Shown here piece by piece: positions 1,758 through 22,182 of a stretch of 26,313 nt of DNA (its first letter is position 1; every line of letters starts with the position of its first letter). The DNA comes from a virus (taxonomy: Duplodnaviria > Heunggongvirae > Uroviricota > Caudoviricetes): IMG/VR virus record IMGVR_UViG_2687453108_000014; one strand, given 5' to 3'. Below the pieces are notes generated by a model. It had not been told where the DNA came from. It did no database searches and saw only the letters and a list, made by a program, of their open reading frames with translations. The position numbers and the translations under genes were made by a program.

Positions 1758-1764
1758 AGGTCAG

Positions 1765-4098
1765 TTATTTCGCTGCAAACTCATCGCATTTTGGCAACCA
1801 GTCAGCATTGCTTTCCTCTCTTAGGGCCAGATTAGTCTGCATTCCTTGATTGGTCCGTCGTTTCTCATACTGCAGCCCATATTCCTTGAGCATTAACGGT
1901 AGCCCCTTGCCAAACATGGTCAGACTGAGCGTATTTTTATAGCCGTTAGCCTCCATGTAGACCAGATAGGCATGGTAGAGGTAAGTTCGAGGCTGACGTG
2001 GAACAATATTAGCGTTCCCCATAAACATGCCCGTGGTGTCAGGTAGGACCTCAAGGTAGCCGCAAAAATCAAAAGCTGAATCAGCATCACGTTTGATGGT
2101 GAGCGCTTCATCGGAGTTCTGCTGTGACTGAAGCAATGTCCTGGCACTCATTGGGTCGCTGAAACGCTGCATAAGCTGGCGAACAATCACCGCTAGCTCA
2201 CTGGCAATTTTCTCTTTGAGCTGGGTATCGCGTTCCTCCGGGGCTATCTGGTCGGGGAAATGCAGGATCACCCTTCGGCGTGAAACTCCACCACTACGAT
2301 CAGTGAAGCGCATCGGATTATTGTTCACAGCCAGGATGACCGCCGGGATGTGGGTTGAATAGGCGTTCTGATATTTGGGATCAACGGATACCGCATCGCC
2401 GCCAGTGATGGCTTTTAGTCCGGCCCCGTCACCGCTCCACTTTTCCTGGTCGGGAAGTCGAATCAGTGAAAAACCTATTAACGCAGCTCGTTCTCTTGGC
2501 GACTCAAGCATTTCAATGGTTGCCGAGGTCGCGTTATCTTCACCCGCCAGCATGGTTGCTATTTCAGCAAGAATACTCTTTCCACTTCCGCCAGGGCCAG
2601 TGACCTCCAGAAACAGCTGCCAGTCATAACGGTTAGCCAGCACCATAAACAATGCAGCCAGAATAATGTCCCGTTTTTCAGGATTAAAACCTGCGGCACG
2701 ATCCAGCCAGCGCCAGAATGCCGGGGCATGGGTTTCCAGTGACTCACCGTCAACGGGCTGCGTGTAATCCACCTCGCACAGCGTACGTAACCAGTGCTTC
2801 TTATCGTGCGGGCTGAACAATCCTGTCCGGGTATCGAGCACACCGTTGCGAAATCCGATAAGTTGCCGCGCCGGATTCTGCTGTTGCGGAACGATCAGTT
2901 TGAGGGTTTCCACGAGAGACGCAATTTTCGCGGATGAAAAAGGTGCGTCGAGGCGCTGAAACAGCGCAGCGACATCACGGGCAAAATCGGCGTAATAGAT
3001 AACTTTCCAGGCCCCCGCCTCATAGCGTGAAAGGAGCTGCCCGTTCGGGTCTACTGCCAGTGAATTTTTATAGTGATCCACTACCCTCTGCGCTTTTTCG
3101 CTGACGCTCAGCGCGGTAAATTCAGCTTCGCTCATTGTGTCGAAGGGGCTGGCAACAGCTGGTTTTATTACTTCATGAATTGCATGCCGGGTGGCTTCTT
3201 CGCCGTTTTGCGTGAATGCATCGTTCCAGTCACCAAACACAGGCGGGAGCGCCATTGTGCAATTGCAGGCCCCGGTAACAGCTGCGCCCCTTGTTTGCCC
3301 CGCACCGTTGAGATCGCGGTCAGCAGCAATAATTATCTGGTGCGTTGGGTACTCACTGCAGGCAATGCTCGCCAGGGAAAGGAAATTGACGGACGAAAAG
3401 GCCACCATGACAGCATCGCCAGTCAGATAGTTGATAGTAAGTGCGGTGGCATATCCTTCCGCTATCCAGAGCCGTTTGGCTGCTTTGGCAGTACCTTCAA
3501 CCAGGTAAAAGGCATTCTTAACCTGACCGCCTTTAAGGAAGCATTTGCCCCCATTAGCGTTGATTAACTGCAGATTTACCAGCTCTCCATCTGCATACAA
3601 TGGAACGACAAGATCTCCCGCGCGAAATGCCACACCACCGACTTTATGCATAGCGGTTAATTCCCGGCAAGGCAGTGCAGGAAACCCTTTACTCGTCAGA
3701 TAGGCATTGCCAGTGGTCTGGCGGGACTTATCAAACAAACGGGCAGCCAGCACTGCTGCAGCTTTTCTCCCGTCCTCTTTTTCAGGAGAACCAGATTCAA
3801 GCATTCCCTGAGATACTGGCAGCAGGTTTCCGATAATGCCGTTTATTCTGTCTGCCGCTTCACTAATGCCTACATCCAGTACTTTACTTACAAGCGCCAG
3901 GCCATCACCTGCCCCGCACTGGTTACAGAACCACGTTCCCCGCCCTTCCTGGTCATCAAATCGAAAGCGGTCTTTCCCGGCACAGACCGGGCAGGGCTGG
4001 TGCCGATTTTTCAGTACATTTACGCCCAGCGCAGGTAAAATTCTTGACCAGTGACCCCGAGCTGCTTTCTCAGCCTGGCTAACTTTCATTCCTGACAT
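1765..4098 (-). CDS. P4 alpha-type primase-helicase
   Basis: N-terminal zinc motif CPVCAGKDRFRFDD...CNQCG, central TOPRIM-like region, C-terminal Walker A GPGGSGKS. Start placed at the internal Met (MSGMKVSQ...), which removes the overlap with the upstream ORF. Confidence 0.88.
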   Translation of the reverse strand: MSGMKVSQAEKAARGHWSRILPALGVNVLKNRHQPCPVCAGKDRFRFDDQEGRGTWFCNQCGAGDGLALVSKVLDVGISEAADRINGIIGNLLPVSQGMLESGSPEKEDGRKAAAVLAARLFDKSRQTTGNAYLTSKGFPALPCRELTAMHKVGGVAFRAGDLVVPLYADGELVNLQLINANGGKCFLKGGQVKNAFYLVEGTAKAAKRLWIAEGYATALTINYLTGDAVMVAFSSVNFLSLASIACSEYPTHQIIIAADRDLNGAGQTRGAAVTGACNCTMALPPVFGDWNDAFTQNGEEATRHAIHEVIKPAVASPFDTMSEAEFTALSVSEKAQRVVDHYKNSLAVDPNGQLLSRYEAGAWKVIYYADFARDVAALFQRLDAPFSSAKIASLVETLKLIVPQQQNPARQLIGFRNGVLDTRTGLFSPHDKKHWLRTLCEVDYTQPVDGESLETHAPAFWRWLDRAAGFNPEKRDIILAALFMVLANRYDWQLFLEVTGPGGSGKSILAEIATMLAGEDNATSATIEMLESPRERAALIGFSLIRLPDQEKWSGDGAGLKAITGGDAVSVDPKYQNAYSTHIPAVILAVNNNPMRFTDRSGGVSRRRVILHFPDQIAPEERDTQLKEKIASELAVIVRQLMQRFSDPMSARTLLQSQQNSDEALTIKRDADSAFDFCGYLEVLPDTTGMFMGNANIVPRQPRTYLYHAYLVYMEANGYKNTLSLTMFGKGLPLMLKEYGLQYEKRRTNQGMQTNLALREESNADWLPKCDEFAAK

Positions 4099-4111
4099 TG
4101 TGCGGCCCTCC

Positions 4112-4435
4112 TTAGTGCAGCGCTGGTTTGTTGAGGTGACGGGAACAAAGTTCATCCATGACCGTCATTCCGAGCAGTGAGAGAACCGGACAGGCTTTAA
4201 GCGGCCCCGACTCCATCAGATCCGAAAGCAACGCGCAGGCAATTTCCAGCCCTCTTTGCTGCCCATGCTGGCGCAGATAGAACCCTTCCAGCTCGCGGGC
4301 TATGGCATCTTCAAGTTCAGCGAGCGTCAGGCCGGAATAACGTTCCTGATGATTGCTTAGAGCCAGCCAGGCACAGGCAACGGCACGGCGATACAGAGCG
4401 GCACGAAGTGCCAGAAGAGATTCACAGCATATCAT
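4112..4435 (-). CDS. Hypothetical protein in the P4-like early region
   Basis: ORF co-directional with and just upstream of the primase gene; no recognisable motif. Confidence 0.45.
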
Positions 4436-4656
4436 CAGGCCACCTCCGCATTCATCAGGTCGTCATGGCAGCGTTGCACCACTCCATCCAGTTGCTCTGT
4501 CATCAGATAAATGAGGGAAACCAGTTGTTCGCATTGGGCACCTGCTGGCTTTTCATAACAGTCCTGCAGGGCTGCCATGCCAGTTACATACTCACCCACA
4601 TTGCGTAAATGTTTCAGCCTTACAACATCGTCGTAGGAAATCTCAAACTGGTTCAT
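4435..4656 (-). CDS. Hypothetical small protein in the P4-like early region
   Basis: 73-aa ORF abutting the neighbouring ORFs in an operon-like arrangement. Confidence 0.4.
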
Positions 4657-5210
4657 AGCGTCACCTCCCCGGCAGGCAGCCGTGCAGAAAGGGAGAGTAC
4701 ATAATCTCGGACTAGCAAACGGCGCGCGGAACGCTCATCGCAGGAGACAGTGCGAAGCATACAGATGCGGGGGTGAGTGTCAGCACGGCGGATTGCGGCA
4801 AACACAAAGACATATTGCGGGTGTGACGGGGTGAGGATTGTAGCCATGATGGCAGCCTCCAATAAGTAGCGGTTATTGCTACCACCGGAAACGCCAATTT
4901 CACTGGTGGCAGCCCGAACGGGGTTGGCGTAACCGGCCTTATTGGAAACCGGCCAGCCCGAAGGCTGCCCCGCCCGGACTACCATTATCTCGATAGAACC
5001 ATGGTGTAAGCATAAACACCACAGCCCTGAAAATGGTTGTGCCTGAGCTACGACGTAAAAAAAGACGCAAGGGGCGTCAATTGTCGCCAATAAGTTATAC
5101 GGAACGCCAATTCCGGCTGCCGATTTTGCGACAGCGGAAAAACTATACCTGGAAATGACGACAGTAAGCAAGCCAGAATAAAGGTATTTAATGTATGCAG
5201 GTATCATCAT
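4653..5210 (-). CDS. Hypothetical protein; start overlaps the alpA stop (ATGA); true start uncertain
   Basis: ATG at 5208-5210 overlaps the AlpA stop; composition is not strongly protein-like, so a shorter internal start is possible. Confidence 0.3.
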
Positions 5211-5467
5211 GCATCACATCCCCGCCCACGGGCGCTGATGCGGTCCGCCATCCATGCGCTGACCTCAGACTGTGCCCAGGCGACATTTTTACCGCCAAGC
5301 GGGATCTGCTTCGGAAACGCATCGCGGCTGATCAGGTCGTAAACGGTCGAACGGGACAACCCGCATAAGTGCATCACCTCAGGCAGGCGTAAAAATCGCT
5401 CATGATGGTTCGATACAGGAAATAATGGCGCAGCAGGAGCTGGCGCAGACACAGAAATATTACGCAT
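5207..5467 (-). CDS. alpA: AlpA/Vis-family prophage transcriptional regulator
   Basis: Segment [53 protein letters not shown] is characteristic of AlpA-family HTH proteins of P4-like elements. Confidence 0.8.
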
Positions 5468-6020
5468 TTATCTACCCTCTTTAATTTCCACAACAGTCCG
5501 GATGAATTTATCCGGGTTCAGGTAGTTCCTTATTATGTGTATATAAACCACCTGCGCACGCATTTTTTATTTAGCGTCACATATTGATTTTATGGAATTT
5601 AAAGCCCGATTAAACCATATAAAATGACATAATAAATACCATGCCTGCGGACTATAAATACAGGAGCATTAATAGGAACTACCATTCACCCAGGGTTTAC
5701 TATCCTATGGGTCATTGCACCTGATAGTGCTAACCCCACCGCCAATACAGCAAGGCAGTACAACTTCTACACGAGGCCTTGCATTGCAGGCCCCAATTTC
5801 CGGGCATATTTTTGAATCGCATCCAACTTATAAACATTGGGCCTGCATAAAAACCTTGATATTAAATAACATCACCTTAAATCGTAAAATATATCCGAAT
5901 GAATCCATAAAGAACCGGACAGATCTAGTTTTATAAAAATCAGTATGAAATGCAACACCATGGCCAGAGGCGAAAATGTTATTCCCCGGCAAAAACATGC
6001 AGTCTATTTATGTGCCTGTT

Positions 6021-6233
6021 GAATACTCCTGAATAAGGGTGAATAGTGGTGAGGAGCAAAAAACAAATAGCTACGAGGAATAAAAAAACCACCCATTATG
6101 AAAAAATACCATAAATAATTTTATTCCCATGTGAACAGTTATGAACAGTCGATGAATACTGCCATGCCAACCCTTCACCTTATAACCTTCTGTATTACCT
6201 ATTTTTTTTACCTAAGTGAATAGTAGTGAATAG
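6021..6233. repeat. Cluster of iteron-like octamers (GGTGAATA / GTGAACAG / AGTGAATA) in the divergent control region
   Basis: At least six copies of TGAAYA-type octamers at 6038-6045, 6130-6137, 6141-6147, 6151-6158, 6215-6222 and 6225-6232; they resemble the reverse complement of the P4 iteron. Confidence 0.4.
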
Positions 6234-6400
6234 TTAAGGTAAGTCTGAAACAGCCTTAGTTAAACGAGGCCTTTTCTGGCTAGCCAAAAGAGGTCCGGGG
6301 CGGTTCAGTCTTTGTCTTGTCGCTCGCACAATGGCGTTCAATGGCAGCTTTGTATGCATCACAGCACAATTGACACCACGACAAACCACTAGGTGCTGAC

Positions 6401-7153
6401 ATGACAATCCCAGAACAGAACAATAACCCGATCGTTGAAATTTCTATCCCTGTTTCGACGCAACAGGCGCTTGAGAAAGTGAATGCCACCAAATCTGCAT
6501 GGCTTGAAGCACGTCGTCAGCAAAAAGCGGCAGCGGATAATATTGCGACAATCCGCCAGCGCCGCGCTGAAATGGAAGCCACGACGAACGCCCTGAATGA
6601 GGAGTGGCGCACGCTATTTCGTGAAAGTCAGGGCGTAGTCTCAAAGGAAATGAAAAAACTGCGCACGGAAATTGCGCTGGGACGAGAAACGCTTGAGGAT
6701 TTTGATGAGCTGCTGGCGGCTCAGGAAAGCGAAAATGCACTTTTGCCGCAGGAGGCTGCGGAATTAGCCGGAAAGTATATCCACGCGCACGACACCCTTG
6801 TGGGTATTCGCGCAAAACAAATCTGGGAAGATTTTATGCAGTCGCATGGAAAAGCACTAATCCAGACACTAAGCCTGCTCAAATCAACAATGGGCAGGGA
6901 AGCCAGCGCAGTTGTCGGTGTGGTGCATTCAGTTAATGACCCGGACACACTGCTGAAAGATTTTATTCATAAACATATCACCAGACCGGCTCTGACTAAC
7001 GATGCGATGCCCGAACAGGACCCCGTGTTTAAACTGGCGGGAGTTGCCCCGGATTATGCGGCCCGTCTGGATTTCAGTAATAAACTCTCTCCAGCAGCTA
7101 TGCATAAAATGAAGGTTCGTCAGGAACGTGCTGAGAAGGAGAAAGCAGTATGA
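6401..7153 (+). CDS. sid: Sid-like capsid size-determination protein
   Basis: 250-aa coiled-coil-rich protein first in the sid-psu-delta block; shares the FMQ-HG-AL motif with the adjacent Psu-like gene. Assignment is from position and recalled similarity. Confidence 0.55.
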   Translation: MTIPEQNNNPIVEISIPVSTQQALEKVNATKSAWLEARRQQKAAADNIATIRQRRAEMEATTNALNEEWRTLFRESQGVVSKEMKKLRTEIALGRETLEDFDELLAAQESENALLPQEAAELAGKYIHAHDTLVGIRAKQIWEDFMQSHGKALIQTLSLLKSTMGREASAVVGVVHSVNDPDTLLKDFIHKHITRPALTNDAMPEQDPVFKLAGVAPDYAARLDFSNKLSPAAMHKMKVRQERAEKEKAV

Positions 7154-7701
7154 TGGCCCGAGTCACTCCAGACCAAGCGCTTATCAGTTTTAGAAATGCC
7201 CGTATTCTGTGGGCTGGACATAGTGAGAGCCGAAAAGCCGTTGAACAACAGATAGAATCACTCCTCACTGCCATGGAAAAACCAGCAGATTATGCTCGAC
7301 AGCTCGAATTACAGCGGGAACATCTGGATGTGCTGAAATGGCAAATTAACTGTGCTGCGCGCGAATGCATTTACTCGCAGCATCAACTGATGGAGGCCTG
7401 CACAGAAGACGCTCTCAGCAATTTTATGCAGGCGAATGGAGCAGCCCTGACATCTGCACTGGCTCCGTTCCTGAAGGGGCGCGGAGGGGTTGACGTTGCG
7501 TCCCGTATATTACGCAATGCTCTGGTTCGCCAGCTGGCAATAACACCGCCTGAAATTGCCGGGGATTATCGTATGATTCTGGATGAATCCGGTGTGATGC
7601 CTGACCCCATGATGGTTCGTGATTGCCAGAGCTCTTACACCCCTGCACAACAACTGCGCTTTCAGCAACGTCTGGATTACATTAACGGCATGCAGGAGTA
7701 A
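7150..7701 (+). CDS. psu: Psu-like polarity suppression protein
   Basis: 183 aa; KWQINCAARECIY and FMQANGAALTSALAPFL resemble what I recall of P4 Psu; start overlaps the sid stop (ATGA). Confidence 0.65.
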   Translation: MMARVTPDQALISFRNARILWAGHSESRKAVEQQIESLLTAMEKPADYARQLELQREHLDVLKWQINCAARECIYSQHQLMEACTEDALSNFMQANGAALTSALAPFLKGRGGVDVASRILRNALVRQLAITPPEIAGDYRMILDESGVMPDPMMVRDCQSSYTPAQQLRFQQRLDYINGMQE

Positions 7702-7706
7702 TATTA

Positions 7707-7979
7707 ATGGCACTTAAATGTCCCGAATGCGGTACGACGGCACACGCCAGAACCTCCGCCTATGAAGCACCATCGGTTAAACGCTCATGGTATCAGTGCC
7801 AGAATCTTGAATGTTCCTACACATTTACCGCACTGGAAAGTGTGGATACGATAATCATGAAGCCCCGGCGCAATGAACAGGAATCAGAGAAAGCACAAAT
7901 GCCGGAAAAACAACAGCAAACTCTCAATCGCTATGGCTCCGCGTCAAAGCTGTCAAGCCGTCAGCAAATTCCTGTCTGA
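7707..7979 (+). CDS. ogr: Ogr/Delta-family zinc-finger late transcription activator
   Basis: CPECG...AHARTS...YQCQNLECSYTF matches the Ogr/Delta zinc-finger pattern of P2/P4-type elements. Confidence 0.85.
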   Translation: MALKCPECGTTAHARTSAYEAPSVKRSWYQCQNLECSYTFTALESVDTIIMKPRRNEQESEKAQMPEKQQQTLNRYGSASKLSSRQQIPV

Positions 7980-7998
7980 TTAGCAAAAAAAGCCCACG

Positions 7999-8027
7999 TA
8001 ATCCCGGTCCAGTACTGGGATTTTTTA
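7999..8027 (+). terminator. Rho-independent terminator after ogr/delta
   Basis: Stem AATCCCGG / CTGGGATT around a 7-nt loop, followed by TTTTTT. Confidence 0.6.
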
Positions 8028-8388
8028 CGCCTTTTCCCTGGCTGGCCTGAGAGCGCATGAGTGCATGTCTATAGCGCATGAAAACGCATGATTCTCATGC
8101 ACCATTTTTGACGCGAAAGCCCTTGTGTGGTGGCTTCTGAGACGATTTGCGGAATGCATGAAAACCAGTCTGTTAAGCGAAGCGAGCAGGCGTGGGGGGC
8201 TGCGCGCGCTAAGGGGTTAGATTATAAAATATCAAACGCCGGTGAGATCCATTATTGTGGAACCACCCGAAGGAAGTGTAGAGGCGAAAGTACCCAAAAT
8301 AATTTTGCAAATTATTTAGAAATGAACTGAGCGCTCGAAACGAAATATAATTTCGAGCACCCCAATTAGCAGTTATATTTTTAATGTA

Positions 8389-10207
8389 TTAAACAGGATA
8401 AAAACCAGAGCTTCCATTCTTATTTAAGTTATGGATTTTATTTGCATCATTAATTTTTATTTGGAACGTCGGACCTTTATTCTCAAGAATTACAATCTGG
8501 AAATTATAGTCCCTTTTGATTAATGCGTGATAAAATGAATCACTGAGACTGACGCTATTAACATCCGATAGAGAACCCCCTCTATCTTTATCAAAGTGCG
8601 TCACTAATGGACTATCAAGCACAACAAATCCAATGAATGGATTCCCTTTTCTTGATAAAAATTCCGCAAAGCAAATGGTAAATATAGCATGCATTACTGC
8701 ACGGGTACCTTTACCAAACATTCCTCGGCGTTTCCCATTGATATTAAAGTCATATGTATCTTCGTCAAATCGCACTTTGTTATCTTTAGAATTTTCAAAA
8801 TTTATATCATTCAAAAAGTCTTGCATCGCTATTTCTATATCATACAAATCAGCTACTGTTAAGGAGTCAAAGTCCTCGGCGGAGTATTTAAGTTCGTCAA
8901 CATCATCTTCTTTATCTTGTAATGAAGATAGAATGCTATGTTTTGTGTGATCCATTAAAAGATTGTCTTTATATTCATAAAGTGATTCAAGAGATGAATG
9001 TATTGTTTTATATTTTTATCTTCTAACGTCTTAAAATCACTTTTTTCTGATTGATAAATTTCATTAACATCATTTTTTCTTAACATAATTAATTCATGTT
9101 CGCGAACATTAGATCCGATTGATTCAATTAATCCTTTCAGCTGGCTTTTGATTTTCAATTTTTCTGCATTACACGACAAAAAACAATCATCATATGATAT
9201 TTCATTTTCTTTTTTTGCGGTGTATTACAGAACTCACAATAAATATCTGCAAAATTATTTAAATAGAAATTCGCCTGTGATACAACATCTATTCTTTGTA
9301 GATCTATAAAGTATTGGTCTTTAAGAAGACTAAATCTTTCAATGAGTAATGATAAGTATTTTTCCCTGTCACTGATTGAATATAATTCATCACTTAACTC
9401 TTTTAATAATTGCTTCTTATCATCAAGTGCATCAACAATACCTTTCAATATATCTTTCGATGATTCAATATCTTGCTCTACTTTCTCAAGTTCTCTTGAA
9501 ACAATGACTTGATCATATTCAGGATAAATTAATTGCGCTTTCAATTCCTCATAAATATTTGCAATTTGATTTTTTTAAAAATATCTTGCTTTTTTATTTG
9601 GTTTTTCTGCTAAGGAGTTAGTATCATCTCTCTGAGTTAAAAGGAATTTAAATTCAGACTTTCTTTTTGTCTCCTCGCTAGGAATATCAGAAAGAATTAA
9701 CGACTTCTCAGTTAACACTCTTAATTCATCAATACAAAAAAATTCAAAAACATTATTAAGATTAAATTTATGAAGAGTATTACTTAAGTTTGTTCTTACT
9801 TTAGCCTCTTTGAAATTCAACCTACCATAAAAGTATGATGAAAAACTCTTTTTAGACGAAGCACTTTTGGAAAAAACCATCAACAGATTAGCTTCACTAA
9901 CATTTTCAATACTCGAATCATATAATCTGTAATGGGCGCTATCCTGAAGAGACCTCTCAATTGTCATTACCCTACCTTGAAAATTAAATTCCAGATAGGC
10001 TAAATCATAACCTTGAGCATGATCGATATCTTTATTTTTTAGTTTTTCACTCCCTAATAAATATCGAATCAAATAATATATGTATGTTTTTCCAGAGTCA
10101 GAACCACCATATAAAATAGTCAATTTAGAACCAAATTCAATTATAGCATCTAATTTATTGAATCCGGTTACCTTTATTTTTCTGAACGTAAAAAAATTGT
10201 CATTCAT
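8389..10207 (-). pseudogene. SMC/ABC-like ATPase (component 3), split into four ORF fragments by one in-frame TAA and at least one frameshift
   Basis: N-terminal fragment has an SMC-type Walker A (FRKIKVTGFNKLDAIIEFGSKLTILYGGSDSGKT); the middle is coiled-coil-like; the last fragment has a Walker-B-like FVVLDSP. Fragments 9578-10207 and 9155-9574 are in the same frame separated by TAA at 9575-9577. Fragments 2 and 3 use TTG starts. Confidence 0.5.
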
Positions 10208-10658
10208 AATTAAATTCCATATCATATTTGCCAATTTTATTTTTTATAATTGATTGCAACTGCTCATCAGGAATATCACTATATAACTTAACCACCAAAT
10301 TTATATTATGCTCCATCTGCGCAACATATTCATTATGTAGAGAATTTGTAAATGCATATGTTTTTTCAGAAGCTTTATATACAAAACCACGATGTGTATA
10401 AATTTTTGAGGCTAGTTCATAGCCTTGCAACAAAGCCAATGATTCTAAAACAATCTCTCGTTTTAGGGCTAACTGAGCATCTCTACGGGGTATTGGAGGA
10501 TGAAGACTAATCTCTTCAGGTAAAAAATCCTTAAGATTTACTAAAATAAAATCAAAACAAATAAGCCGTTCAAGGCTTAATGAAGAAGGATAAATAGCGA
10601 CGAGCACTTTCGCCATTCGACATGCCACTTCTAAACTTGAATTATAAATTCTAACCAT
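10200..10658 (-). CDS. Small protein (component 2), about 152 aa from the internal ATG
   Basis: ATG at 10656-10658 overlaps the upstream stop (TAATG) and its own stop overlaps the ATPase start (ATGAATGA); no recognisable motif. Confidence 0.5.
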   Translation of the reverse strand: MVRIYNSSLEVACRMAKVLVAIYPSSLSLERLICFDFILVNLKDFLPEEISLHPPIPRRDAQLALKREIVLESLALLQGYELASKIYTHRGFVYKASEKTYAFTNSLHNEYVAQMEHNINLVVKLYSDIPDEQLQSIIKNKIGKYDMEFNYE

Positions 10659-11275
10659 TATCTCACCGTCCAAATTACTTCACCATCATTAACCAAATGA
10701 TGGCATATTCCTTTTTTATCATTTGCTTCACATATTTTTGATAGTACTGAATGTGCAATTGGTGTCAGAACAGCCTGCTTCAAGACTGCATTACACCTAA
10801 TAAATGCATAATTATGGTCTTCATAAAAGACGGGTTCAATTGAAGATGAAATGTAACATTTCAATGCTTTGAATACATCATCTTTAAATACTTCGCGGAC
10901 AAAAACCTCAAGCGAAGATGCAAAATAAAAATCATTTCTACTATTATTAAAGTGTCGTCTGTATGGATCATCAAGCTCTAAGAAAGAACTATAAGTTTTA
11001 TTTCCATGCTCTGAATAGGCTTGAAGCAGTGCATTAACATATACAGACTCTTTTTTTGAATTGTATGTTGGAATTTCATTTGGAGGGATTCTCACGACAT
11101 ACAGCTCGTTAAAGTACTTAAAATAAAGGTGTGTATTTGCAATATCATTTAAAATCAATGATAAGGGTAGAGAGTAAAAAATACTAAAATCAAAATCCTC
11201 AATATATTTTTTTATTTCATCATCTAATGGAATATCAATCTTTTTAGTTATTTTTTTGAAATTGCTGAATCCCAT
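10658..11275 (-). CDS. Hypothetical protein, probably the C-terminal part of the upstream nuclease-like gene
   Basis: Overlaps the upstream ORF by 28 nt in another frame exactly at an A7 run (11251-11257); its own RBS is weak; a 1-nt change in the run would fuse the two into about 340 aa. Confidence 0.45.
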   Translation of the reverse strand: MGFSNFKKITKKIDIPLDDEIKKYIEDFDFSIFYSLPLSLILNDIANTHLYFKYFNELYVVRIPPNEIPTYNSKKESVYVNALLQAYSEHGNKTYSSFLELDDPYRRHFNNSRNDFYFASSLEVFVREVFKDDVFKALKCYISSSIEPVFYEDHNYAFIRCNAVLKQAVLTPIAHSVLSKICEANDKKGICHHLVNDGEVIWTVR

Positions 11276-11664
11276 GAATCAAGGACTGCTTTTTTAAGCT
11301 CGTTTTTATTTTTCAATAAATTAGAAAATGTAGTAGATAAATCATAGGGTGCCACAAAAAAGTACTTCTGAGGGATGGGATAATCACCATTCAGAGTAAA
11401 ATAGATAAGTTTTCCAAACTCAACTACAACATCAGAGAACCCTAAACTTTTTTTGTACAGTTTGCATTGATAATTATCCCAAGAATAACCTTCTACGTTA
11501 GGATCCGATTTATATCCAACAACGTCTCTACCTTTATCTCCAGCTCCTCCCAAACGTTCGCTCCACGGGTAATCATCTGATTTACAGACAATAAGCCAAT
11601 CATGGACAAATACCTCCCATTGTTCATCATCCCATGTCAATATTTCCGAAAGTGGTTGAGACAC
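11248..11664 (-). CDS. PD-(D/E)xK (Mrr/Cap4-like) nuclease-domain protein (component 1, N-terminal part)
   Basis: ERLGGAGDKGRDVVGY ... NYQCKLYKK resembles the G-x-GD-x-G-x-D ... QxK catalytic core of Mrr-type nucleases; GTG start 7 nt after AAGGAG, directly downstream of the integrase stop. Confidence 0.5.
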   Translation of the reverse strand: MSQPLSEILTWDDEQWEVFVHDWLIVCKSDDYPWSERLGGAGDKGRDVVGYKSDPNVEGYSWDNYQCKLYKKSLGFSDVVVEFGKLIYFTLNGDYPIPQKYFFVAPYDLSTTFSNLLKNKNELKKAVLDSWDSAISKK

Positions 11665-11667
11665 AAA

Positions 11668-12849
11668 TTAACTCCTTTTTAGTCTTTCAAATATCAAATT
11701 ACTGTACCAGTCCATCATAGACTTCCTTCCACTAAAATATTGAGCATGGTTATAAGTCCCCCTAATAGAATTTTTATCTACATGAGCCAACTGGATTTCA
11801 ATCCAAGCACTCTCAAAACCTTGCTCATGCAGGATTGTAGAAAGGGTATGACGAAAACCATGTCCAGTGACTTTTCCTCCATACCCAATACGCTTAATGG
11901 CTTGATTTATACTCGCTTCGCTCATTGGCCTATTCGGATCGTTCCGCCCTGGAAAAACATAACGATAGTTCCCTGTCATGATCTTGAGTTCATTGAGTAA
12001 ATCTACCGCTTGAGATGATAAGGGCACAAGATGTGGCCTACGCATTTTCATCCTTTCAGCAGGAATTTCCCAAATAGCGTTATCCAGATCAAATTCTTGC
12101 CATAATGCCGCGCGTAATTCGATGGTTCTCACACCCGTAATCATCAGTAATTTCGTGGCTATCTGGACAAGCTTACTCCCGGAGTAACCCTCTAAGGCAC
12201 GTAGAAAATCAGGTATCTCATCAGCTTTTAGGAATGGGAAATGATTGGATTGGTGTACTTCGAGAGCGCTGGAGAGATCAGCCGCAGGATTGTACTCCGC
12301 CCTACCCGTTGCAATTGCGGGGCGGTTCACTTCGGAGCAACGCTGCCGCACTTTGCGCATTTTCTCCAACGCACCACGTTTCTCAATTTTACGCAGAACG
12401 TTCAGCAGCTCTAGCGGTTTAATCTCTCCCACAGGCCTTGTTCCGACATAAGGAAAAATGTCGTTCTTAAACGCTTCCATGATGTCTGATGCATATCCCG
12501 CCGACCATTTAGCAGATTTAAGTTGATGCCACTCTCTGGCTATCTTTTCGAAGGCGTTCTCTGACTCTGTTTGCATAGCTAGCTTTTGCTCTTTTCGAAC
12601 CTCACTAGGGTTCTTTCCTTCTGCCACAAGTTTTCGAGCTTCATCACGACGGGAACGAGCATCGGCAAGGGTGATCGTTGGGTAAACACCAAGCGAGATC
12701 ATTTTGGGTTTGCCGGCATAGCGATAGCGGAACCGCCAACTCTTGCTTCCATTAGGTTCTATAAGTAATGACAACCCTAGCCCATCTCCAAATGTATAGG
12801 CTTTAGCTTCAGGCTTAGCGCGGCGAATCTGCATATCGTTTAAAGGCAT
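11668..12849 (-). CDS. int: P4-type tyrosine integrase
   Basis: P4-type N-terminal arm-binding region (MPLNDMQIRRAKPEAKAYTFGDGLGLSL...) and catalytic HxxR (GHGFRHTL) and Tyr (RGTYNHAQY) motifs; lies next to the partial thrW repeat. Confidence 0.9.
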   Translation of the reverse strand: MPLNDMQIRRAKPEAKAYTFGDGLGLSLLIEPNGSKSWRFRYRYAGKPKMISLGVYPTITLADARSRRDEARKLVAEGKNPSEVRKEQKLAMQTESENAFEKIAREWHQLKSAKWSAGYASDIMEAFKNDIFPYVGTRPVGEIKPLELLNVLRKIEKRGALEKMRKVRQRCSEVNRPAIATGRAEYNPAADLSSALEVHQSNHFPFLKADEIPDFLRALEGYSGSKLVQIATKLLMITGVRTIELRAALWQEFDLDNAIWEIPAERMKMRRPHLVPLSSQAVDLLNELKIMTGNYRYVFPGRNDPNRPMSEASINQAIKRIGYGGKVTGHGFRHTLSTILHEQGFESAWIEIQLAHVDKNSIRGTYNHAQYFSGRKSMMDWYSNLIFERLKRS

Positions 12850-12904
12850 GTGTATAGGAATCCAGACCGAACAGGAACATATACACAATCCTATACACAT
12901 TCAG

Positions 12905-13010
12905 TACCGGATTCTACTGGATGGTTACGGACTACTATGGACTTAAAAGAATAAAAAATGTTATAAATCAGAGATTTTATGGACTAATACGGACGTTTGA
13001 GGAAGTTGAG
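12905..13010. promoter_or_regulatory. Candidate integrase arm-type binding repeats
   Basis: Repeated TACGGAC / TATGGACTA motifs between the int start and the att core. Confidence 0.3.
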
Positions 13011-13012
13011 AT

Positions 13013-13058
13013 GGTGCCGATAATAGGAGTCGAACCTACGACCTTCGCATTACGAATT
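13013..13058 (-). repeat. 46-bp partial thrW 3' end, the att junction between the two elements
   Basis: Exact 46-bp identity to 24870-24915 (3' portion of thrW); diverges at 13059. Confidence 0.85.
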
Positions 13059-13338
13059 ATAAGAATCCGCTTCTAATTCAAAGCATTACCCCATCAACAC
13101 TGCGCTCACACGTCCCACCACATCAAAACATGTAAAGCCTTGCAAGCCATTGCGAGGCCTTATGTGTCTCAGTTTTGTCCCACCTTGTATTACGACTTGC
13201 ATAGCCAATGAAGATAAACGTGACGACAAACGGCGCAGCAGTCTTCTTTTCTTTCACGACTTCTCCAGCATGCATACCTTTCTGCCATGACTGAAGTGAA
13301 TGCCTGTTATGAGCAAGGATTGGCCCAGATGAATCGCC

Positions 13339-13504
13339 CTGGACTGTTGCGATCGTGAAGCCATAGACTGGGCCGCAAGCACGGGAGGTTACGATAAAGC
13401 GACAGTGCAGGATGTCATGTTAGGAGCGATAGAAAAACGCTTTGGCGATAAAGTACCGGAACAGTCCATCCAGTGGCTGACAGATAACGGTTCAGCGTAT
13501 AGAG
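13339..13504 (+). pseudogene. IS2-family (IS3 superfamily) transposase remnant, upstream part, interrupted by the IS629-like element
   Basis: Translates to ...[51 protein letters not shown], resembling an InsD-type C-terminal region; the frame continues after the IS. Confidence 0.55.
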
Positions 13505-13558
13505 TGAACCGCCCCGGAAATCCTGGAGACTAAACTCCCTGAGAAAGAGGTAAACAGG

Positions 13559-13885
13559 ATGACTAAAAATACTCGTTTTTCCCCCGAAGTCCGTCAGCGG
13601 GCGATTCGTATGGTTCTGGAAAGTCAGGATGAATATGACTCACAGTGGGCGGCAATTTGTTCCATTGCCCCAAAGATTGGCTGTACGCCGGAGACTCTGC
13701 GTGTCTGGGTTCGCCAGCATGAGCGGGATACCGGGGGCGGTGATGGTGGGCTCACCAGCGCTGAACGTCAGCGTCTGAAAGAGCTGGAACGTGAAAATCG
13801 TGAACTGCGCCGCAGTAACGATATCCTTCGCCAGGCTTCCGCTTATTTTGCGAAGGCGGAGTTCGACCGCCTCTGGAAAAAATGA
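13559..13885 (+). CDS. IS629-like OrfA (HTH)
   Basis: [23 protein letters not shown]... with leucine-zipper-like C-terminus, typical of IS3-family OrfA. Confidence 0.85.
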
Positions 13886-14772
13886 TGCCACTGCTGGATA
13901 AGCTGCGTGAGCAGTACGGGGTCGGACCGGTATGCAGCGAACTGCATATTGCCCCGTCAACGTATTACCATTGTCAGCAACAGCGACATCATCCGGATAA
14001 ACGCAGTGCCCGTGCGCAGCACGACGACTGGCTGAAGAGAGAGATACAGCGCGTATACGATGAAAATCATCAGGTGTACGGTGTGCGTAAAGTCTGGCGT
14101 CAGTTGTTACGGGAAGGAATCAGGGTGGCCAGATGTACAGTGGCACGTCTCATGGCGGTTATGGGACTTGCCGGTGTTCTCCGGGGTAAAAAGGTCCGTA
14201 CGACCATCAGCCGGAAAGCCGTTGCCGCAGGCGACCGCGTAAACCGTCAGTTCGTGGCAGAACGACCTGACCAGCTGTGGGTGGCTGATTTTACTTACGT
14301 CAGCACATGGCAGGGCTTCGTCTATGTGGCGTTTATCATTGATGTGTTTGCCGGATACATCGTGGGGTGGCGGGTCTCATCGTCTATGGAAACGACATTC
14401 GTGCTGGATGCGCTGGAGCAGGCGTTGTGGGCCCGTCGTCCGTCTGGCACCATCCATCACAGCGATAAAGGCTCTCAGTATGTGTCACTGGCCTATACGG
14501 AGCGACTAAAAGAAGCCGGATTACTGGCATCAACAGGGAGTACAGGCGACTCGTATGACAACGCGATGGCTGAGAGCATCAATGGTCTTTACAAAGCGGA
14601 GGTAATACACCGTAAGAGCTGGAAAAACCGTGCAGAAGTGGAACTGGCCACACTAACGTGGGTGGACTGGTATAACAATCGACGATTGCTGGGAAGGCTG
14701 GGCCATACTCCTCCGGCAGAAGCAGAAAAAGCTTATTATGCTTCCATCGGAAACGATGATCTGGCAGCCTGA
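13882..14772 (+). CDS. IS629-like OrfB (DDE transposase)
   Basis: DDE-type catalytic region (...WVADFTYV..., ...HHSDKGSQY..., ...DNAMAES...); overlaps orfA as expected for programmed -1 frameshifting. Confidence 0.85.
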
Positions 14773-14817
14773 GTTCACAGATAAAACACTCTCCAGGAAA
14801 CCCGGGGCGGTTCAGAG

Positions 14818-15083
14818 CGCATGAAACACGGCAGTTCGCCAGAGAGTTGAATCTGGAGCCCTGCACAACGGCAATCAGCAGTCCTCAGAGTAATGGAATT
14901 GCAGAAAGGTTCGTGAAAACGATGAAGGAAGACTACATCGCGTTCATGCCGAAACCGAATGTAAGAACGGCATTGCATAATCTTGCAGTGGCGATCGAAC
15001 ATTACAATGAAAACCATCCGCACAGTGCGTTGGGTTATCGCTCTCCGCGAGAATATCGACGTCAGCGGGTAACGTTAACTTAA
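14818..15083 (+). pseudogene. IS2-family transposase remnant, downstream part (C-terminus)
   Basis: ...[36 protein letters not shown]...[14 protein letters not shown]... continues the frame of 13339-13504 once the IS and one GAG copy are removed. Confidence 0.55.
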
Positions 15084-15124
15084 GATACCCCCCCTGTCTG
15101 GAAATAAGGGGGCAAGAACAATGA

Positions 15125-15868
15125 TCAGATTCCCTGGTGAGTAAGAATTTTACTTTCTGAACTCCTCTGAGAGTATTGACTTGGAGAAACACCAAAATAA
15201 CGTCTAAATACATAAGTAAAGTATGAGACACTGGCATAACCACAGACCTTAGCTACTTTACTAATAGGATAACAACGAGTGCTGAGTAAATATTCAGCCA
15301 TTTGCATCCTCTCATCAAGTATGATCTTACTGAATGATACCCCCTCTTCTTTCAATTTCCTCTTTAGTAAACTTTCGCTGAGATATAATCTTGATGATAT
15401 ATCCTTAAGACGCCATGGTGCAGATAAATCCGTATGAATAATCGTTTTAACTTTAGCCCCTGTGCTTTTCAAACATCCAAACAGAAATACTCCAAATTGT
15501 TTTTCAGAAGAAAATGCAGAGAGACATGTAAAAGCAATAGACTCATCAAAAATTTCTATGTATTCAGCACAGTGATTAGCCCAACTAATTAATCCTTTAA
15601 TTAAACTGAAGTCAGCAAAGTTTATTTTTAAATAAGATGGATATTCCCTACAATCAGAAATATCCCTTAAGTTATTAGCTTTCAAATAGCGACTAATAAA
15701 CTCAGCGCCAAAATCCGCCACTATCACTCTTTCAGGATATGTCAGGAAAAAATCTCTAGAGCTAGAGTCGACAAGTACAGATGAACCTCTCTCCAGAAAC
15801 ACACTCTCTTTTCCGAAATAAACATCAAAGGACTCCAAAATCAATATAACTGAACATGTAGTTGCCAT
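15125..15868 (-). CDS. AraC/XylS-family transcriptional regulator, AppY-like
   Basis: C-terminal double HTH (WRLKDISSRLYLSESLLKRKLKEEGVSFSKIILDERMQMAEYLL...VCGYASVSYFTYVFRRYFGVSPSQY); overall layout resembles prophage-borne AppY-type regulators; gene is AT-rich. Confidence 0.8.
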   Translation of the reverse strand: MATTCSVILILESFDVYFGKESVFLERGSSVLVDSSSRDFFLTYPERVIVADFGAEFISRYLKANNLRDISDCREYPSYLKINFADFSLIKGLISWANHCAEYIEIFDESIAFTCLSAFSSEKQFGVFLFGCLKSTGAKVKTIIHTDLSAPWRLKDISSRLYLSESLLKRKLKEEGVSFSKIILDERMQMAEYLLSTRCYPISKVAKVCGYASVSYFTYVFRRYFGVSPSQYSQRSSESKILTHQGI

Positions 15869-16450
15869 ATCATCCCCCCAATTTAACTGAAACCAGGATG
15901 AAGTATATGTATATAAAGTTCACTTTGCCAAACTTCAGTATAAAAAACCACTAAAAATAGGGTGTGATAAAAAATACCGTAACAATAAAGCAAAGGATTA
16001 TAAATTCCGTTACAGTTACAAATGATACTCAAGAAACAATTCCTTAGGAAAAACTTATTTACAGCCAATAAGTAAGACACTTATATGATATCAAGTTTTC
16101 ATAAAACATAACTAGGCTAAATAGCTGCGCCTAATACCGCTACACTTTTGCCAGCCCATGTTTGCCTCCGGGTATTGACCCCTTCTCTACGCAACTTCAG
16201 TTCCCACCACCAACTTTGCGGCAGCTTTGTAGGATCAATGTCTAAAAGAATAATGGTGACCGATAAGAAAACGACTGAATAACTGCAGATTTTCGCTCAA
16301 AACCTTCCTGTCAGATCCATAGCGAATCAAGTGCTGAATGTCACAGTATCGAACAGAAAACAGTGACGATCTAACCCTTCAAGAATATTCTACGATTGTT
16401 CTGTTTAGGAAAAGCAAGACGGGAAGTCGGGAGATAAGTCATTGATAAAG

Positions 16451-16512
16451 TGGCGGAGAGAGGGGGATTTGAACCCCCGGTAGAGTTGCCCCTACTCCGG
16501 TTTTCGAGACCG
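16451..16512 (-). other. 62-bp 3' fragment of a tRNA-Ser(CGA) gene (serU-like), att-type remnant
   Basis: Reverse complement reads CGGTCTCGAAAACCGGAGTAGGGGCAACTCTACCGGGGGTTCAAATCCCCCTCTCTCCGCCA: anticodon arm with CGA, long variable arm, T-arm and acceptor 3' end; the 5' half is absent. Confidence 0.7.
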
Positions 16513-16595
16513 ACCCGATCATCAAACGAAACATAAAATTAGCTCACATTATGAGGAAAGGTATCTTTTTGCGCTATGTAAATTCAAAGGGTTAG

Positions 16596-17465
<870 letters not shown>

Positions 17466-17522
17466 ATCTTCAAGTGGTAAGCATAAACCGCAGCACGATC
17501 TTGCATACGACGTGCTACGGTT

Positions 17523-18077: not shown

Positions 18078-18141
18078 GGTAGATCTCCCTGACAAAAGCA
18101 GGAATGATGCCATTTGCTCGTTATTTCTGCATTTTCATAAA

Positions 18142-18167
18142 CGTTGGTTTGGGAGAAGGTGCTCCAG
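18142..18167. repeat. Invertase crossover site 1 (hix/gix-like, 26 bp)
   Basis: Reverse complement TTCTCCCAAACCAACGTTTATGAAAA resembles hix/gix sites and matches 19971-19996 in inverted orientation over TTCTCCCAAACCAA-GTTT. Confidence 0.7.
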
Positions 18168-18388
18168 CTATTGGCGTTCCGTTTCTGGCCGTCCGCTGCA
18201 ATGCCAATACTGTAATCGACAGCTGGTCCTGTATGGTGTTTTTGAAGTTCAACGGCGCGAAATTCTCTGCCACTGATTATCCTGTGCTGGCGAAAGTGTT
18301 TCCTTCGCTGGTATTACCTGAAGCCGCGGTGATTTCATTCGTATCTGGGATGACGGGCGAGGTGCAGACGGTGGTCGCGAATTATTAA
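18168..18388 (+). other. Promoterless alternative tail-fibre C-terminal segment (Sv')
   Basis: Frame runs on from the crossover site: ...GAPAIGVPFLAVRCNANTV...KFNGAKFSATDYPVLAKVFPSLVLPEA..., a tail-fibre-like motif. Confidence 0.45.
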
Positions 18389-19586: not shown

Positions 19587-19616
19587 ATTCGTCCATATAA
19601 ATCACCCTGAATAAAA

Positions 19617-21972: not shown

Positions 21973-22182
<210 letters not shown>

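What the first reader, a model, noticed from the sequence alone, without database searches (positions are those of the whole stretch)
8389..11664. Three-component candidate defence module in the P4-like cargo hotspot, with its ATPase broken
Directly downstream of the P4-type integrase and co-directional with it lies a markedly AT-rich operon. It encodes a PD-(D/E)xK Mrr/Cap4-like nuclease-domain protein (11248-11664, probably continuing into 10658-11275), a small 152-aa protein (10200-10658), and an SMC-like ABC ATPase (8389-10207) with Walker A, coiled-coil middle and a Walker-B-like C-terminus. The genes are coupled by overlapping stop/start codons. This is the slot between int and psu/delta where P4-like satellites are known to carry variable anti-phage systems. 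The nuclease / small protein / SMC-ATPase order resembles Lamassu (DdmABC-type), but I cannot confirm family membership from sequence alone. It may be a divergent or undescribed variant.
Basis: partly seen in the sequence, partly recalled or inferred. Interest (0 to 1): 0.8.

Follow-up and report, generated by a model that had tools for sequence, protein, structure and literature searches.

The report
Decayed Lamassu-Mrr defence operon in P4-like satellite
This is a known type of anti-phage system (Lamassu with an Mrr-type nuclease) carried in the cargo slot of a P4-like satellite prophage of E. coli O157:H7, but two of its three genes are broken by small mutations, so it is almost certainly a dead relic rather than a new defence system.

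Summary
Downstream of the P4-type integrase lies an AT-rich minus-strand operon, lmuA (11664-10658), lmuC (10658-10200) and lmuB (10207-8389). PADLOC and Pfam place all the pieces in one Lamassu / ABC-3C set. AlphaFold models of intact homologues match solved LmuA and LmuB structures best. The LmuA effector is an Mrr-type PD-(D/E)xK nuclease, so this is the described "Lamassu-Mrr" subtype, not an undescribed variant.

The operon is a pseudogene array with four lesions:
- a 1-base loss in lmuA (A-run 11251-11257);
- a TTA>TAA stop in lmuB (9575-9577);
- two single-A losses in lmuB (9210-9216 and 9013-9017).

Intact 335/152/606-aa versions sit in the same int-delta/psu slot in Pantoea, and next to a degraded integrase in Proteus. 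In 5,426 complete E. coli genomes the locus occurs only in the O157:H7/O55:H7 lineage (about 309 genomes). No intact copy turned up by DNA search, and the lmuA lesion is in all 309 records. Later lesions accumulate by sub-lineage, and substitutions look neutral.

The locus is Sakai prophage Sp2 (ECs_0290-0293; ECs_0293 is already flagged as a pseudogene). Its O55:H7 allele was published as "Lamassu-var" (NAR 2024) with only a marginal phenotype. Low novelty.

The parts
11248..11664 (-). lmuA 5' fragment (138 aa): Mrr-type PD-(D/E)xK nuclease domain. GTG start at 11664-11662, with Shine-Dalgarno AAGGAG at 11677-11672. It ends at a premature TAA (11250-11248) created by the frameshift.
   Evidence: PADLOC LmuA PDLC03852 positions 10-140, E 9e-41. 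The family-invariant residues D43, G45, D47, Q66-C67-K68, E82 and K85 are all present. 6 of 43 family members hit Pfam Mrr_cat, best E 1.6e-6. Sequence read.
11251..11257 (-). Lesion a: an A7 run in lmuA that is one base shorter than the corresponding 8-nt segment of intact relatives. It causes a frameshift that separates the nuclease domain from the C-terminal domain.
   Evidence: Adding one A restores ...DSWDSAISKKITKKIDIPLD..., which matches Pantoea ...SWDSAISKKISKKVDIPLD.... This allele is present in 309 of 309 E. coli records.
10658..11275 (-). lmuA 3' fragment (ORF of 205 aa; the homologous part starts at the A-run): the LmuA C-terminal domain (ABC-3C CTD6).
   Evidence: Pfam CTD6 E 7.7e-30. 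PADLOC LmuA PDLC03852 positions 141-333, E 3.9e-44.
10200..10658 (-). lmuC (152 aa), intact: ABC-3C middle component 2 (called wHTH in Millman's table).
   Evidence: Pfam MC2 E 6e-30. PADLOC LmuC PDLC03871 E 2.5e-36. 30% identity to SE15 LmuC, E 9e-25.
8389..10207 (-). lmuB pseudogene (ancestrally 606 aa): SMC/Rad50-like ABC ATPase, now in four reading-frame pieces (9575-10207, 9155-9544, 8955-9179, 8389-8955).
   Evidence: PADLOC LmuB PDLC03863 positions 3-199 (E 8e-50), 230-329 (E 2e-16) and 428-608 (E 5e-37). ECs_0293 is flagged as a pseudogene in Sakai.
9575..9577 (-). Lesion b: TTA(Leu211)>TAA nonsense in lmuB. It truncates the protein after the N-terminal head half.
   Evidence: Present in the window and in Sakai. 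O55:H7 strains and Proteus have TTA, and Pantoea has CTG. LSU61 has a 390-aa ORF spanning the site.
9210..9216 (-). Lesion c: A8>A7 single-base loss in lmuB (frameshift). It is specific to a subclade of O157:H7.
   Evidence: Proteus, Sakai and O55:H7 all have A8. The window allele is in 66 of 309 records.
9013..9017 (-). Lesion d: A6>A5 single-base loss in lmuB (frameshift). It is shared by every O157:H7 and O55:H7 copy examined.
   Evidence: The homologue reads ..GKKYKKIH..; in the window KYKTIH is in another frame.
8329..8362 (-). Terminator-like hairpin (13 pairs) 27 nt downstream of the lmuB stop. Probable end of the operon.
11668..12849 (-). P4-type tyrosine integrase (393 aa by homology; the ORF is open up to 12900). 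Its stop lies 3 nt before the lmuA start.
   Evidence: Pfam Arm-DNA-bind_3, Phage_int_M and Phage_integrase. RefSeq and homologue starts.
6401..7979 (+). P4-like late genes on the other side of the cargo slot: sid-like (6401-7153), psu (7150-7701), delta (7707-7979).
   Evidence: Pfam Psu E 4.8e-42 and Ogr_Delta E 1e-16. PHROGs Psu-like families. Sakai annotation.
13011..13057 (.). 47-bp direct repeat of the 3' end of thrW (24869-24915): the att site on the integrase side of the satellite. A 16-bp partial copy at 117-132 marks the other end, giving an element of about 12.9 kb.
   Evidence: Sakai feature 'prophage Sp2, P4-like phage'.

Best explanation
The locus is a pseudogenised three-gene Lamassu system of the Mrr-effector subtype (lmuA-lmuC-lmuB; ABC-3C with CTD6 and MC2). 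It is carried as cargo between int and delta/psu of the P4-like satellite prophage Sp2 of E. coli O157:H7.

How the intact ancestor worked is inferred from published Lamassu work, not shown here. An LmuB dimer plus LmuC holds one LmuA monomer inactive. On sensing phage DNA ends or replication intermediates, with ATP hydrolysis, LmuA is released. It then oligomerises through its C-terminal domain, and its nuclease degrades DNA, which aborts the infection.

In this window the system cannot do that:
- LmuA's nuclease domain is cut off from the C-terminal domain, which in solved Lamassu complexes mediates tetramerisation.
- LmuB stops at residue 210, after Walker A but before the coiled coil, the CxxC apex and Walker B, and it has two further frameshifts downstream.
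- Only lmuC is intact.

The decay was stepwise. Two single-A losses (lmuA, and lmuB at 9013-9017) predate the O55:H7/O157:H7 split. The TAA arose on the O157:H7 branch. The A8>A7 loss arose in a subclade that includes this window. Other strains carry their own extra homopolymer indels and stops.
For: - Family assignment: PADLOC LmuA, LmuC and LmuB hits tile single models across the fragments. Pfam gives CTD6, MC2 and AAA_23.
- Structure: the LmuA-homologue model (pLDDT 93.6) matches solved LmuA chains best (9nxx, 9ny1, 9hqx), then Cap4, MspJI and FokI nucleases. The LmuB-homologue model matches LmuB chains (9uxh, 9hqu, 9hqx, 9nyg), then Rad50 and SMC heads.
- Mrr subtype: invariant D..D..QxK motif and Mrr_cat hits in the family. 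All three proteins are homologous to the validated SE15 Lamassu-Mrr (table).
- Lesions: three-frame translation, comparison with Sakai and O55:H7, and comparison with intact outgroups.
- Repair: restoring the two shared A losses and using majority alleles gives clean 335/152/606-aa ORFs.
- Not sequencing error: the lmuA lesion is in 309 of 309 records, and the window-specific lesion is in 66 of 309.
- Relaxed constraint: 9 non-synonymous plus 2 nonsense against 2 synonymous changes, where the neutral N:S ratio is 4.0, plus five further lineage-specific indels in A/T runs.
- Same cassette, intact, in the same P4-like slot in Pantoea alhagi and a Logan sample.
- Requirement for all three genes and the Abi mechanism.
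Against: - The O55:H7 allele of this locus, which has a split lmuA and a two-piece lmuB, was reported to reduce T-even plaque size. That would imply some residual activity. However, the effect was seen only at the highest dilutions, and the insert ends exactly at the lmuA start codon, so it has no native upstream signals.
- lmuC and the nuclease-domain ORF remain intact, and all the frameshifts lie in slippery A-runs, so low-level restoration by slippage cannot be excluded.
- No expression or phenotype data exist for the window allele.
- The substitution counts are small.
Confidence: 0.9

Rival explanations
1. The fragmented locus is still a working, or conditionally working, defence system. 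Full-length proteins could be restored by -1 ribosomal or transcriptional slippage at the A-runs (a phase-variable or slippage-tuned Lamassu). Alternatively, the split pieces could assemble non-covalently.
For: - All three frameshifts are single-A changes in A5-A8 runs.
- At lmuA the 0-frame reads TCA AAA AAA TAA. A -1 slip on A_AAA_AAA would give exactly the ancestral ..AISKKITKK.. (my inference).
- The stop of fragment 3 overlaps the ATG of fragment 4 (TAATG at 8955).
- The O55:H7 allele gave smaller T-even plaques.
- Allele length at these tracts varies between strains.
Against: - The window also has a TAA nonsense codon at lmuB codon 211, which slippage cannot fix.
- Three or four independent events would all have to be bypassed in one cell.
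- Intact relatives have uninterrupted ORFs and no conserved slippery site.
- Lineage-specific changes add more stops rather than toggling between on and off states.
- Substitutions look neutral.
- The reported phenotype is marginal and comes from a construct lacking upstream signals.
Confidence: 0.06
2. It is a genuine new multi-gene (5-7 CDS) Lamassu variant, as implied by the published label 'Lamassu-var, 3 to 9 CDSs'.
For: RefSeq annotates 6-7 separate CDSs without pseudogene flags in most genomes. The Domainator paper treats it as a system variant.
Against: - The CDSs tile single LmuA and LmuB profiles in order.
- The closest relatives have exactly three genes of 335, 152 and 606 aa.
- The breaks map to one-base changes relative to those relatives.
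- The number of pieces differs between strains.
Confidence: 0.02
3. The ATPase and nuclease are housekeeping repair paralogues (RecN/SbcC-like) or unrelated gene fragments, not a defence module.
For: Weak Pfam hits to SMC_N and AAA_23. Lamassu is itself thought to derive from SbcCD/Rad50-Mre11.
Against: - The best profile and structure matches are to Lamassu components specifically.
- The three genes co-occur in the same order in other genera.
- The location is the P4 defence hotspot.
- There is no Mre11/SbcD partner.
Confidence: 0.01

Closest known systems
'Lamassu-var' of the Domainator paper (NAR 2024, PMC11754643), cloned from E. coli O55:H7 TB182A, CP038295 positions 4,116,517-4,120,474
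   Same: It is the same locus. The same delta/psu/sid and int flank it. LmuA-C is the identical protein WP_001303996 (TB182A's LmuA-N WP_024174675 and LmuC WP_000251689 are the O55:H7 variants, each one residue from the window's). The lmuA frameshift is the same, and so is the downstream lmuB frameshift, inferred from TB182A's identical RefSeq protein set with O55:H7 DEC5D, whose DNA was aligned. The paper's cluster 1 (259 loci, '3 to 9 CDSs', Psu 31% identical to P4) corresponds to the O157:H7/O55:H7 copies found here.
   Different: The O55:H7 allele lacks the TAA nonsense and the A8>A7 loss of the window, but has its own extra A loss (394 + 188 aa LmuB pieces). The paper's main text has no occurrence of 'frameshift', 'pseudogene' or 'truncat', and it says the element is not P4-like. 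Here the element has the P4-type core set and att repeats.
Lamassu-Mrr (Lamassu family, Millman et al. 2022), validated system from E. coli O150:H5 SE15
   Same: The architecture is the same: Mrr-nuclease LmuA, wHTH LmuC, SMC LmuB. All three proteins are homologous: LmuA 27% (E 2e-42), LmuC 30% (E 9e-25), LmuB 27% over the first 400 aa (E 8e-30). The GGAGDKGRD / YQCK / FDFSIF / GICH motifs are shared.
   Different: Sequence identity is only 27-30%. SE15 is intact and protects by abortive infection, with all three genes required. The window copy has two of its three genes disrupted.
Structurally solved Lamassu complexes: V. cholerae LmuABC/DdmABC (9nxx, 9ny1, 9nyg), Salmonella enterica LmuACB (9hqu, 9hqx), type II Lamassu (9uxh)
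   Same: They are the best structural matches for models of the intact homologues of LmuA and LmuB. They share the nuclease-plus-CTD layout of LmuA and the Rad50-like LmuB with a coiled coil and CxxC apex. The mechanism is presumed to be the same.
   Different: There is no detectable sequence similarity by phmmer or hmmsearch. The V. cholerae system uses a Cap4-type nuclease, whereas this one has an Mrr-type nuclease. TM-scores are low (about 0.3), as expected for flexible multi-domain chains.
Intact orthologous cassettes in Pantoea alhagi CP019706, Logan SRR1122541 and Proteus mirabilis
   Same: Gene order and overlaps are the same. LmuB is 75-87% identical. The Pantoea copies sit in the same int / delta-psu-sid slot of a P4-like element.
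   Different: They have uninterrupted 335/152/606-aa ORFs. The Proteus copy lies next to a degraded integrase.

Membership tests
Lamassu (LmuA/LmuC/LmuB; ABC-3C) | LmuB: SMC/Rad50-like ABC ATPase with Walker A, Walker B, a long antiparallel coiled coil and a CxxC apex | tested here: met
   Met for the reconstructed gene. PADLOC LmuB PDLC03863 is covered at positions 3-608 by the fragments. The motifs are conserved in alignment with 606-aa homologues. The model has helices 233-319 and 339-439 with CxxC at 324-327. The top PDB matches are LmuB chains.
Lamassu (LmuA/LmuC/LmuB; ABC-3C) | LmuC: small middle component encoded between or next to lmuA and lmuB | tested here: met
   Pfam MC2 E 6e-30 and PADLOC LmuC E 2.5e-36. 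Homologous to SE15 LmuC.
Lamassu (LmuA/LmuC/LmuB; ABC-3C) | LmuA: variable N-terminal effector fused to a conserved LmuA C-terminal domain | tested here: met
   Met for the reconstructed gene. PADLOC LmuA positions 10-333 are covered by the two fragments. CTD6 is found in 43 of 43 family members. The model matches solved LmuA chains best.
Lamassu-Mrr subtype | Effector domain is an Mrr-type PD-(D/E)xK nuclease with the catalytic D...(Q/E)xK motif | tested here: met
   D43, D47, Q66-x-K68 and E82 are invariant and present in the window. Mrr_cat is hit by 6 of 43 members (best E 1.6e-6), though only at E 0.2 for the window fragment itself. Fold matches include Cap4, MspJI and FokI nuclease domains. 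37% identity to the B. cereus 'Mrr nuclease' LmuA.
Lamassu (functional system) | All three genes intact (all are required for defence in tested systems) | tested here: not met
   lmuA is frameshifted. lmuB has one nonsense codon and two frameshifts.
Lamassu (functional system) | Confers phage resistance by abortive infection | not testable with these tools
   The only data are for the O55:H7 allele: smaller T-even plaques at the highest dilutions.
P4-like satellite defence hotspot cargo | Located between psu/delta and int of an element with the P4 core genes, bounded by att repeats | tested here: met
   Core genes present: sid-like, psu, delta, int, alpha primase-helicase, an Ash-family protein that RefSeq names Icd-like, and an HTH regulator. 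thrW-derived repeats lie at 13011-13057 and 117-132. Sakai labels the element Sp2, P4-like. Psu is divergent, reported as 31% identical to P4 Psu.
   The best profile and structure hits are LmuB. The partners are LmuA and LmuC. The context is mobile-element cargo.
Programmed -1 frameshift gene | Slippery site and frame break conserved among homologues | tested here: not met
   Proteus and Pantoea homologues have a single ORF, and the sequence at the site differs.

The most novel reading that the evidence does not exclude
The broken operon is not fully dead. Slippage at the A-runs (for example -1 on A_AAA_AAA_TAA in lmuA, which would recreate the ancestral protein), or assembly of split LmuA and LmuB pieces, would yield a low-level or phase-variable Lamassu activity. 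That would explain the weak T-even phenotype reported for the O55:H7 allele and the retention of the locus across the whole O157:H7/O55:H7 lineage. For the window allele it would also require read-through of the TAA at lmuB codon 211.
Probability: 0.05. Interest if true: 0.5.

Novelty: already known. Interest (0 to 1): 0.2.

Why it matters
The main value is as a correction and an annotation aid.

- The 'most frequent P4-hotspot system' reported for E. coli ('Lamassu-var', 259 loci) is one decaying Lamassu-Mrr locus. It is inherited vertically in the heavily sequenced O157:H7/O55:H7 lineage. It is neither a new multi-gene variant nor an abundant active system.
- RefSeq mostly annotates its fragments as separate hypothetical proteins.
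- It is a clear counter-example to the recent claim that defence pseudogenes are rare (under 1%) in P4 hotspots.
- It gives a dated series of inactivation steps: two shared lesions, then a lineage-specific stop, then a subclade indel.
- The intact Pantoea and Proteus cassettes, or a four-base repair of this one, could serve as a convenient enterobacterial Lamassu-Mrr for experiments.

Tried and rejected
- **Intact E. coli copy.** Megablast and blastn of the locus against 5,426 complete genomes found only copies at 99.6% identity or above. Every copy whose sequence or annotation I read was broken, and the lmuA lesion is in all 309 records.
- **PDB sequence searches.** Searches with LmuA, LmuB, LmuC and an LmuA profile gave only chance hits. 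Structure comparison was needed instead.
- **Counting the TAA allele.** An 81-nt query was removed by the low-complexity filter. Its distribution therefore rests on the strains read directly: the window and Sakai have it, and three O55:H7 strains and LSU61 lack it.
- **Rousset et al. FRIK944 lead.** Their inactive 'O157:H7 FRIK944' construct turned out to be a cytidine-deaminase system, not this locus. This locus was not in their survey, probably because its Psu is too divergent for their BLAST threshold ('None').
- **Compensating indel in LSU61.** Its extra A does not restore the frame, because a TGA follows immediately.
- **Programmed frameshifting in lmuA.** Rejected as the primary explanation because relatives have a continuous ORF.
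- **Technical.** Loci L003-L005 were not mirrored to the Python sandbox, so the variant comparison used DNA alignment instead.
Full report
**Observation.** The stretch is AT-rich, at 27-34% GC against about 50% in the flanks. lmuA starts at a GTG (11664) 3 nt after the integrase stop and is preceded by AAGGAG. lmuA/lmuC and lmuC/lmuB overlap by 1 nt and 8 nt respectively. A 13-pair terminator-like hairpin follows the lmuB stop.

**Identity.**
- PADLOC places every informative fragment in one Lamassu set. The two nuclease ORFs cover positions 10-140 and 141-333 of a single LmuA model (E 9e-41 and 4e-44). The small protein is LmuC (E 2.5e-36). Three ATPase pieces cover positions 3-199, 230-329 and 428-608 of a single LmuB model (E 8e-50, 2e-16, 5e-37).
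- Pfam gives the ABC-3C domains CTD6 and MC2, plus AAA_23.
- Intact LmuB homologues of 606 aa exist in Proteus mirabilis (87% identity) and Pantoea alhagi (75%). A second tier sits at about 45% identity in Salmonella, Serratia, Klebsiella, Citrobacter, Yersinia and Aeromonas.
- The repaired window LmuB aligns end to end with them and keeps Walker A, a CxxC pair, GKGxR and the VLDSP Walker B.
- An AlphaFold model of an intact LmuA homologue (pLDDT 93.6) matches solved LmuA chains from V. cholerae and Salmonella best, then Cap4, MspJI, FokI and Avs3 nuclease domains.
- An LmuB-homologue model shows a split head, two long antiparallel helices and the CxxC at the apex. After a B. subtilis YydD-YydB integrative model (9a6c), it matches solved LmuB chains best, ahead of Rad50 and SMC heads.
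- Sequence-only searches of the PDB found nothing.

**Effector subtype.** In a 43-member alignment of LmuA relatives, D43, G45, D47, Q66-C67-K68, E82 and K85 are invariant. This is a PD-(D/E)xK pattern of the Mrr type. Six members hit Pfam Mrr_cat (best E 1.6e-6) and all 43 hit CTD6. Millman et al. defined the Lamassu family to include Mrr effectors. They validated a 'Mrr nuclease LmuA / wHTH LmuC / SMC LmuB' system from E. coli SE15 that acts by abortive infection and needs all three genes. The repaired window proteins are homologous to all three SE15 proteins at 27-30% identity (E 2e-42, 9e-25, 8e-30), and LmuA is 37% identical to the B. cereus 172560W homologue. This is therefore the described Lamassu-Mrr subtype, not an undescribed variant.

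**Lesions.** Three-frame translation, comparison with other E. coli copies and comparison with intact outgroups define four lesions.
- (a) lmuA: the A7 run at 11251-11257 is one base shorter than in relatives. Adding one A restores ..DSWDSAISKKITKKIDIPLD.., matching the single 335-aa ORFs of Proteus and Pantoea.
- (b) lmuB codon 211: TTA>TAA at 9575-9577.
- (c) lmuB: A8>A7 at 9210-9216.
- (d) lmuB: A6>A5 at 9013-9017.

Restoring (a) and (d) and taking the majority alleles yields uninterrupted ORFs of 335, 152 and 606 aa.

**Distribution and history.**
- The locus occurs in about 309 of 5,426 complete E. coli genomes. All copies are at least 99.6% identical and all are in the O157:H7/O55:H7 lineage. 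No more distant DNA relative was found in E. coli.
- Lesion (a) is in 309 of 309 records.
- Lesion (d) is in every strain I read, including O55:H7 DEC5D, DEC5B and CB9615 and the early-branching O157:H7 LSU61. TB182A carries the same RefSeq protein set as DEC5D.
- Lesion (b) is in the window and Sakai, but not in the O55:H7 strains or LSU61.
- Lesion (c) is in 66 of 309 records.
- Other strains have private indels in A/T runs and a private CAA>TAA.
- Substitutions within the lineage are 9 non-synonymous plus 2 nonsense against 2 synonymous, where the neutral expectation for N:S is 4.0.

Together this is stepwise neutral decay after an early inactivation. It is not assembly error.

**Context.**
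- The element has a sid-like gene, psu, delta, int, an alpha-type primase-helicase, an Ash-family protein that RefSeq names Icd-like, and an HTH regulator.
- It is bracketed by a 47-bp repeat of the thrW 3' end (13011-13057) and a 16-bp partial copy (117-132), giving about 12.9 kb.
- Sakai annotates it as 'prophage Sp2, P4-like phage', with ECs_0293 (lmuB) flagged as a pseudogene.
- The psu-int interval is the published P4 defence hotspot.
- In Pantoea alhagi and a Logan assembly, the intact cassette occupies exactly this slot.

**Prior description.** The Domainator paper reported as its most frequent E. coli hotspot cluster a system 'related to Lamassu' (259 loci, '3 to 9 CDSs', Psu 31% identical to P4). 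It cloned 'Lamassu-var' from CP038295 positions 4,116,517-4,120,474. That interval is this locus in O55:H7 TB182A. It has the split LmuA and a 394 + 188-aa LmuB. The insert ends at the lmuA start codon, so it carries no native upstream signals. The phenotype was only smaller T-even plaques at the highest dilutions. The paper's text does not mention frameshifts or pseudogenes. A 2026 preprint states that defence pseudogenes are under 1% of the pseudogenes in P4 elements, so this locus is an exception to that pattern.

**Mechanism.** For the intact ancestor I infer the published Lamassu mechanism. An LmuA1-B2-C1 complex keeps the nuclease sequestered. It senses DNA ends or replication intermediates, and ATP hydrolysis releases LmuA. 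LmuA then tetramerises through its C-terminal domain and degrades DNA, which aborts the infection. In the window allele, LmuB ends at residue 210, and LmuA's nuclease domain is detached from the C-terminal domain that mediates tetramerisation. The system should therefore be inactive, and the free nuclease domain should be harmless. This last step is inference.

**Rivals.**
- Residual function through slippage or split-protein assembly cannot be excluded. It is unlikely for this allele because of the TAA codon and the number of lesions.
- A true multi-gene variant is contradicted by the three-gene relatives.
- A repair paralogue is contradicted by the profile and structure matches and by the synteny.

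**Verdict.** However, the system is a known subtype, this locus has already been published and partly annotated as a pseudogene, and it is non-functional by sequence. Interest is low. The useful by-product is the recognition that 'Lamassu-var' is a decayed Lamassu-Mrr fixed in one clonal lineage.

Noticed in passing
window 16641-17465 (+): A 274-aa protein matches the PADLOC PD-T4-3 model almost full-length (E 2.3e-140). RefSeq calls it a LEM-3-like GIY-YIG protein. It appears to be an intact single-gene defence system in the neighbouring prophage Sp1 remnant, beside pinE and tail-fibre genes.
   Followed up: partly
window 676-1632 (+): A 318-aa ORF in a very AT-rich stretch (29-35% GC) lies just beyond the alpha primase gene and inside the att-bounded satellite. 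It has no hit in Pfam, PHROGs or PADLOC. It may be a second, uncharacterised cargo gene of the P4-like element.
   Followed up: partly
window 13405-14772 (+): An IS3-family element (IS1203/IS629-type orfA/orfB at 13559-14772) and an adjacent transposase fragment lie just outside the att repeat. In strain TW14359 a copy of the same IS instead interrupts the satellite integrase, whereas int is intact in this window.
   Followed up: no
window 117-132, 13011-13057 and 24869-24915: Direct repeats derived from the 3' end of tRNA-Thr(CGU) thrW delimit two tandem elements: the P4-like Sp2 (about 117-13057) and the Sp1 remnant (13058-24868).
   Followed up: yes
L009 (E. coli O55:H7 TB182A, CP038295 4,116,517-4,120,474): The published 'Lamassu-var' insert starts at the delta start codon and ends exactly at the lmuA GTG. 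It therefore contains the delta gene but no sequence upstream of lmuA (no native SD or promoter). This weakens its marginal phenotype as evidence of function.
   Followed up: partly
window 8953-8957 (-): The out-of-frame third lmuB fragment ends in TAA overlapping the ATG of the last fragment (TAATG), at a Met that is internal in intact homologues. This is a chance arrangement that could allow termination-reinitiation of the C-terminal head half.
   Followed up: no
window 9043-9048 and homologous positions in L002, L004, L005, L010: One A-tract in lmuB exists as A5 (O55:H7 DEC5D and CB9615), A6 (window, Sakai, Proteus) and A7 (O157:H7 LSU61). Other A/T runs also carry strain-private indels. 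This is homopolymer drift typical of an unconstrained AT-rich pseudogene.
   Followed up: yes
window 10200-10658 (-): LmuC matches PHROG family phrog_36943 over its full length (E 4.7e-105; function listed as unknown). That PHROG can be annotated as a Lamassu LmuC / ABC-3C middle component 2.
   Followed up: no
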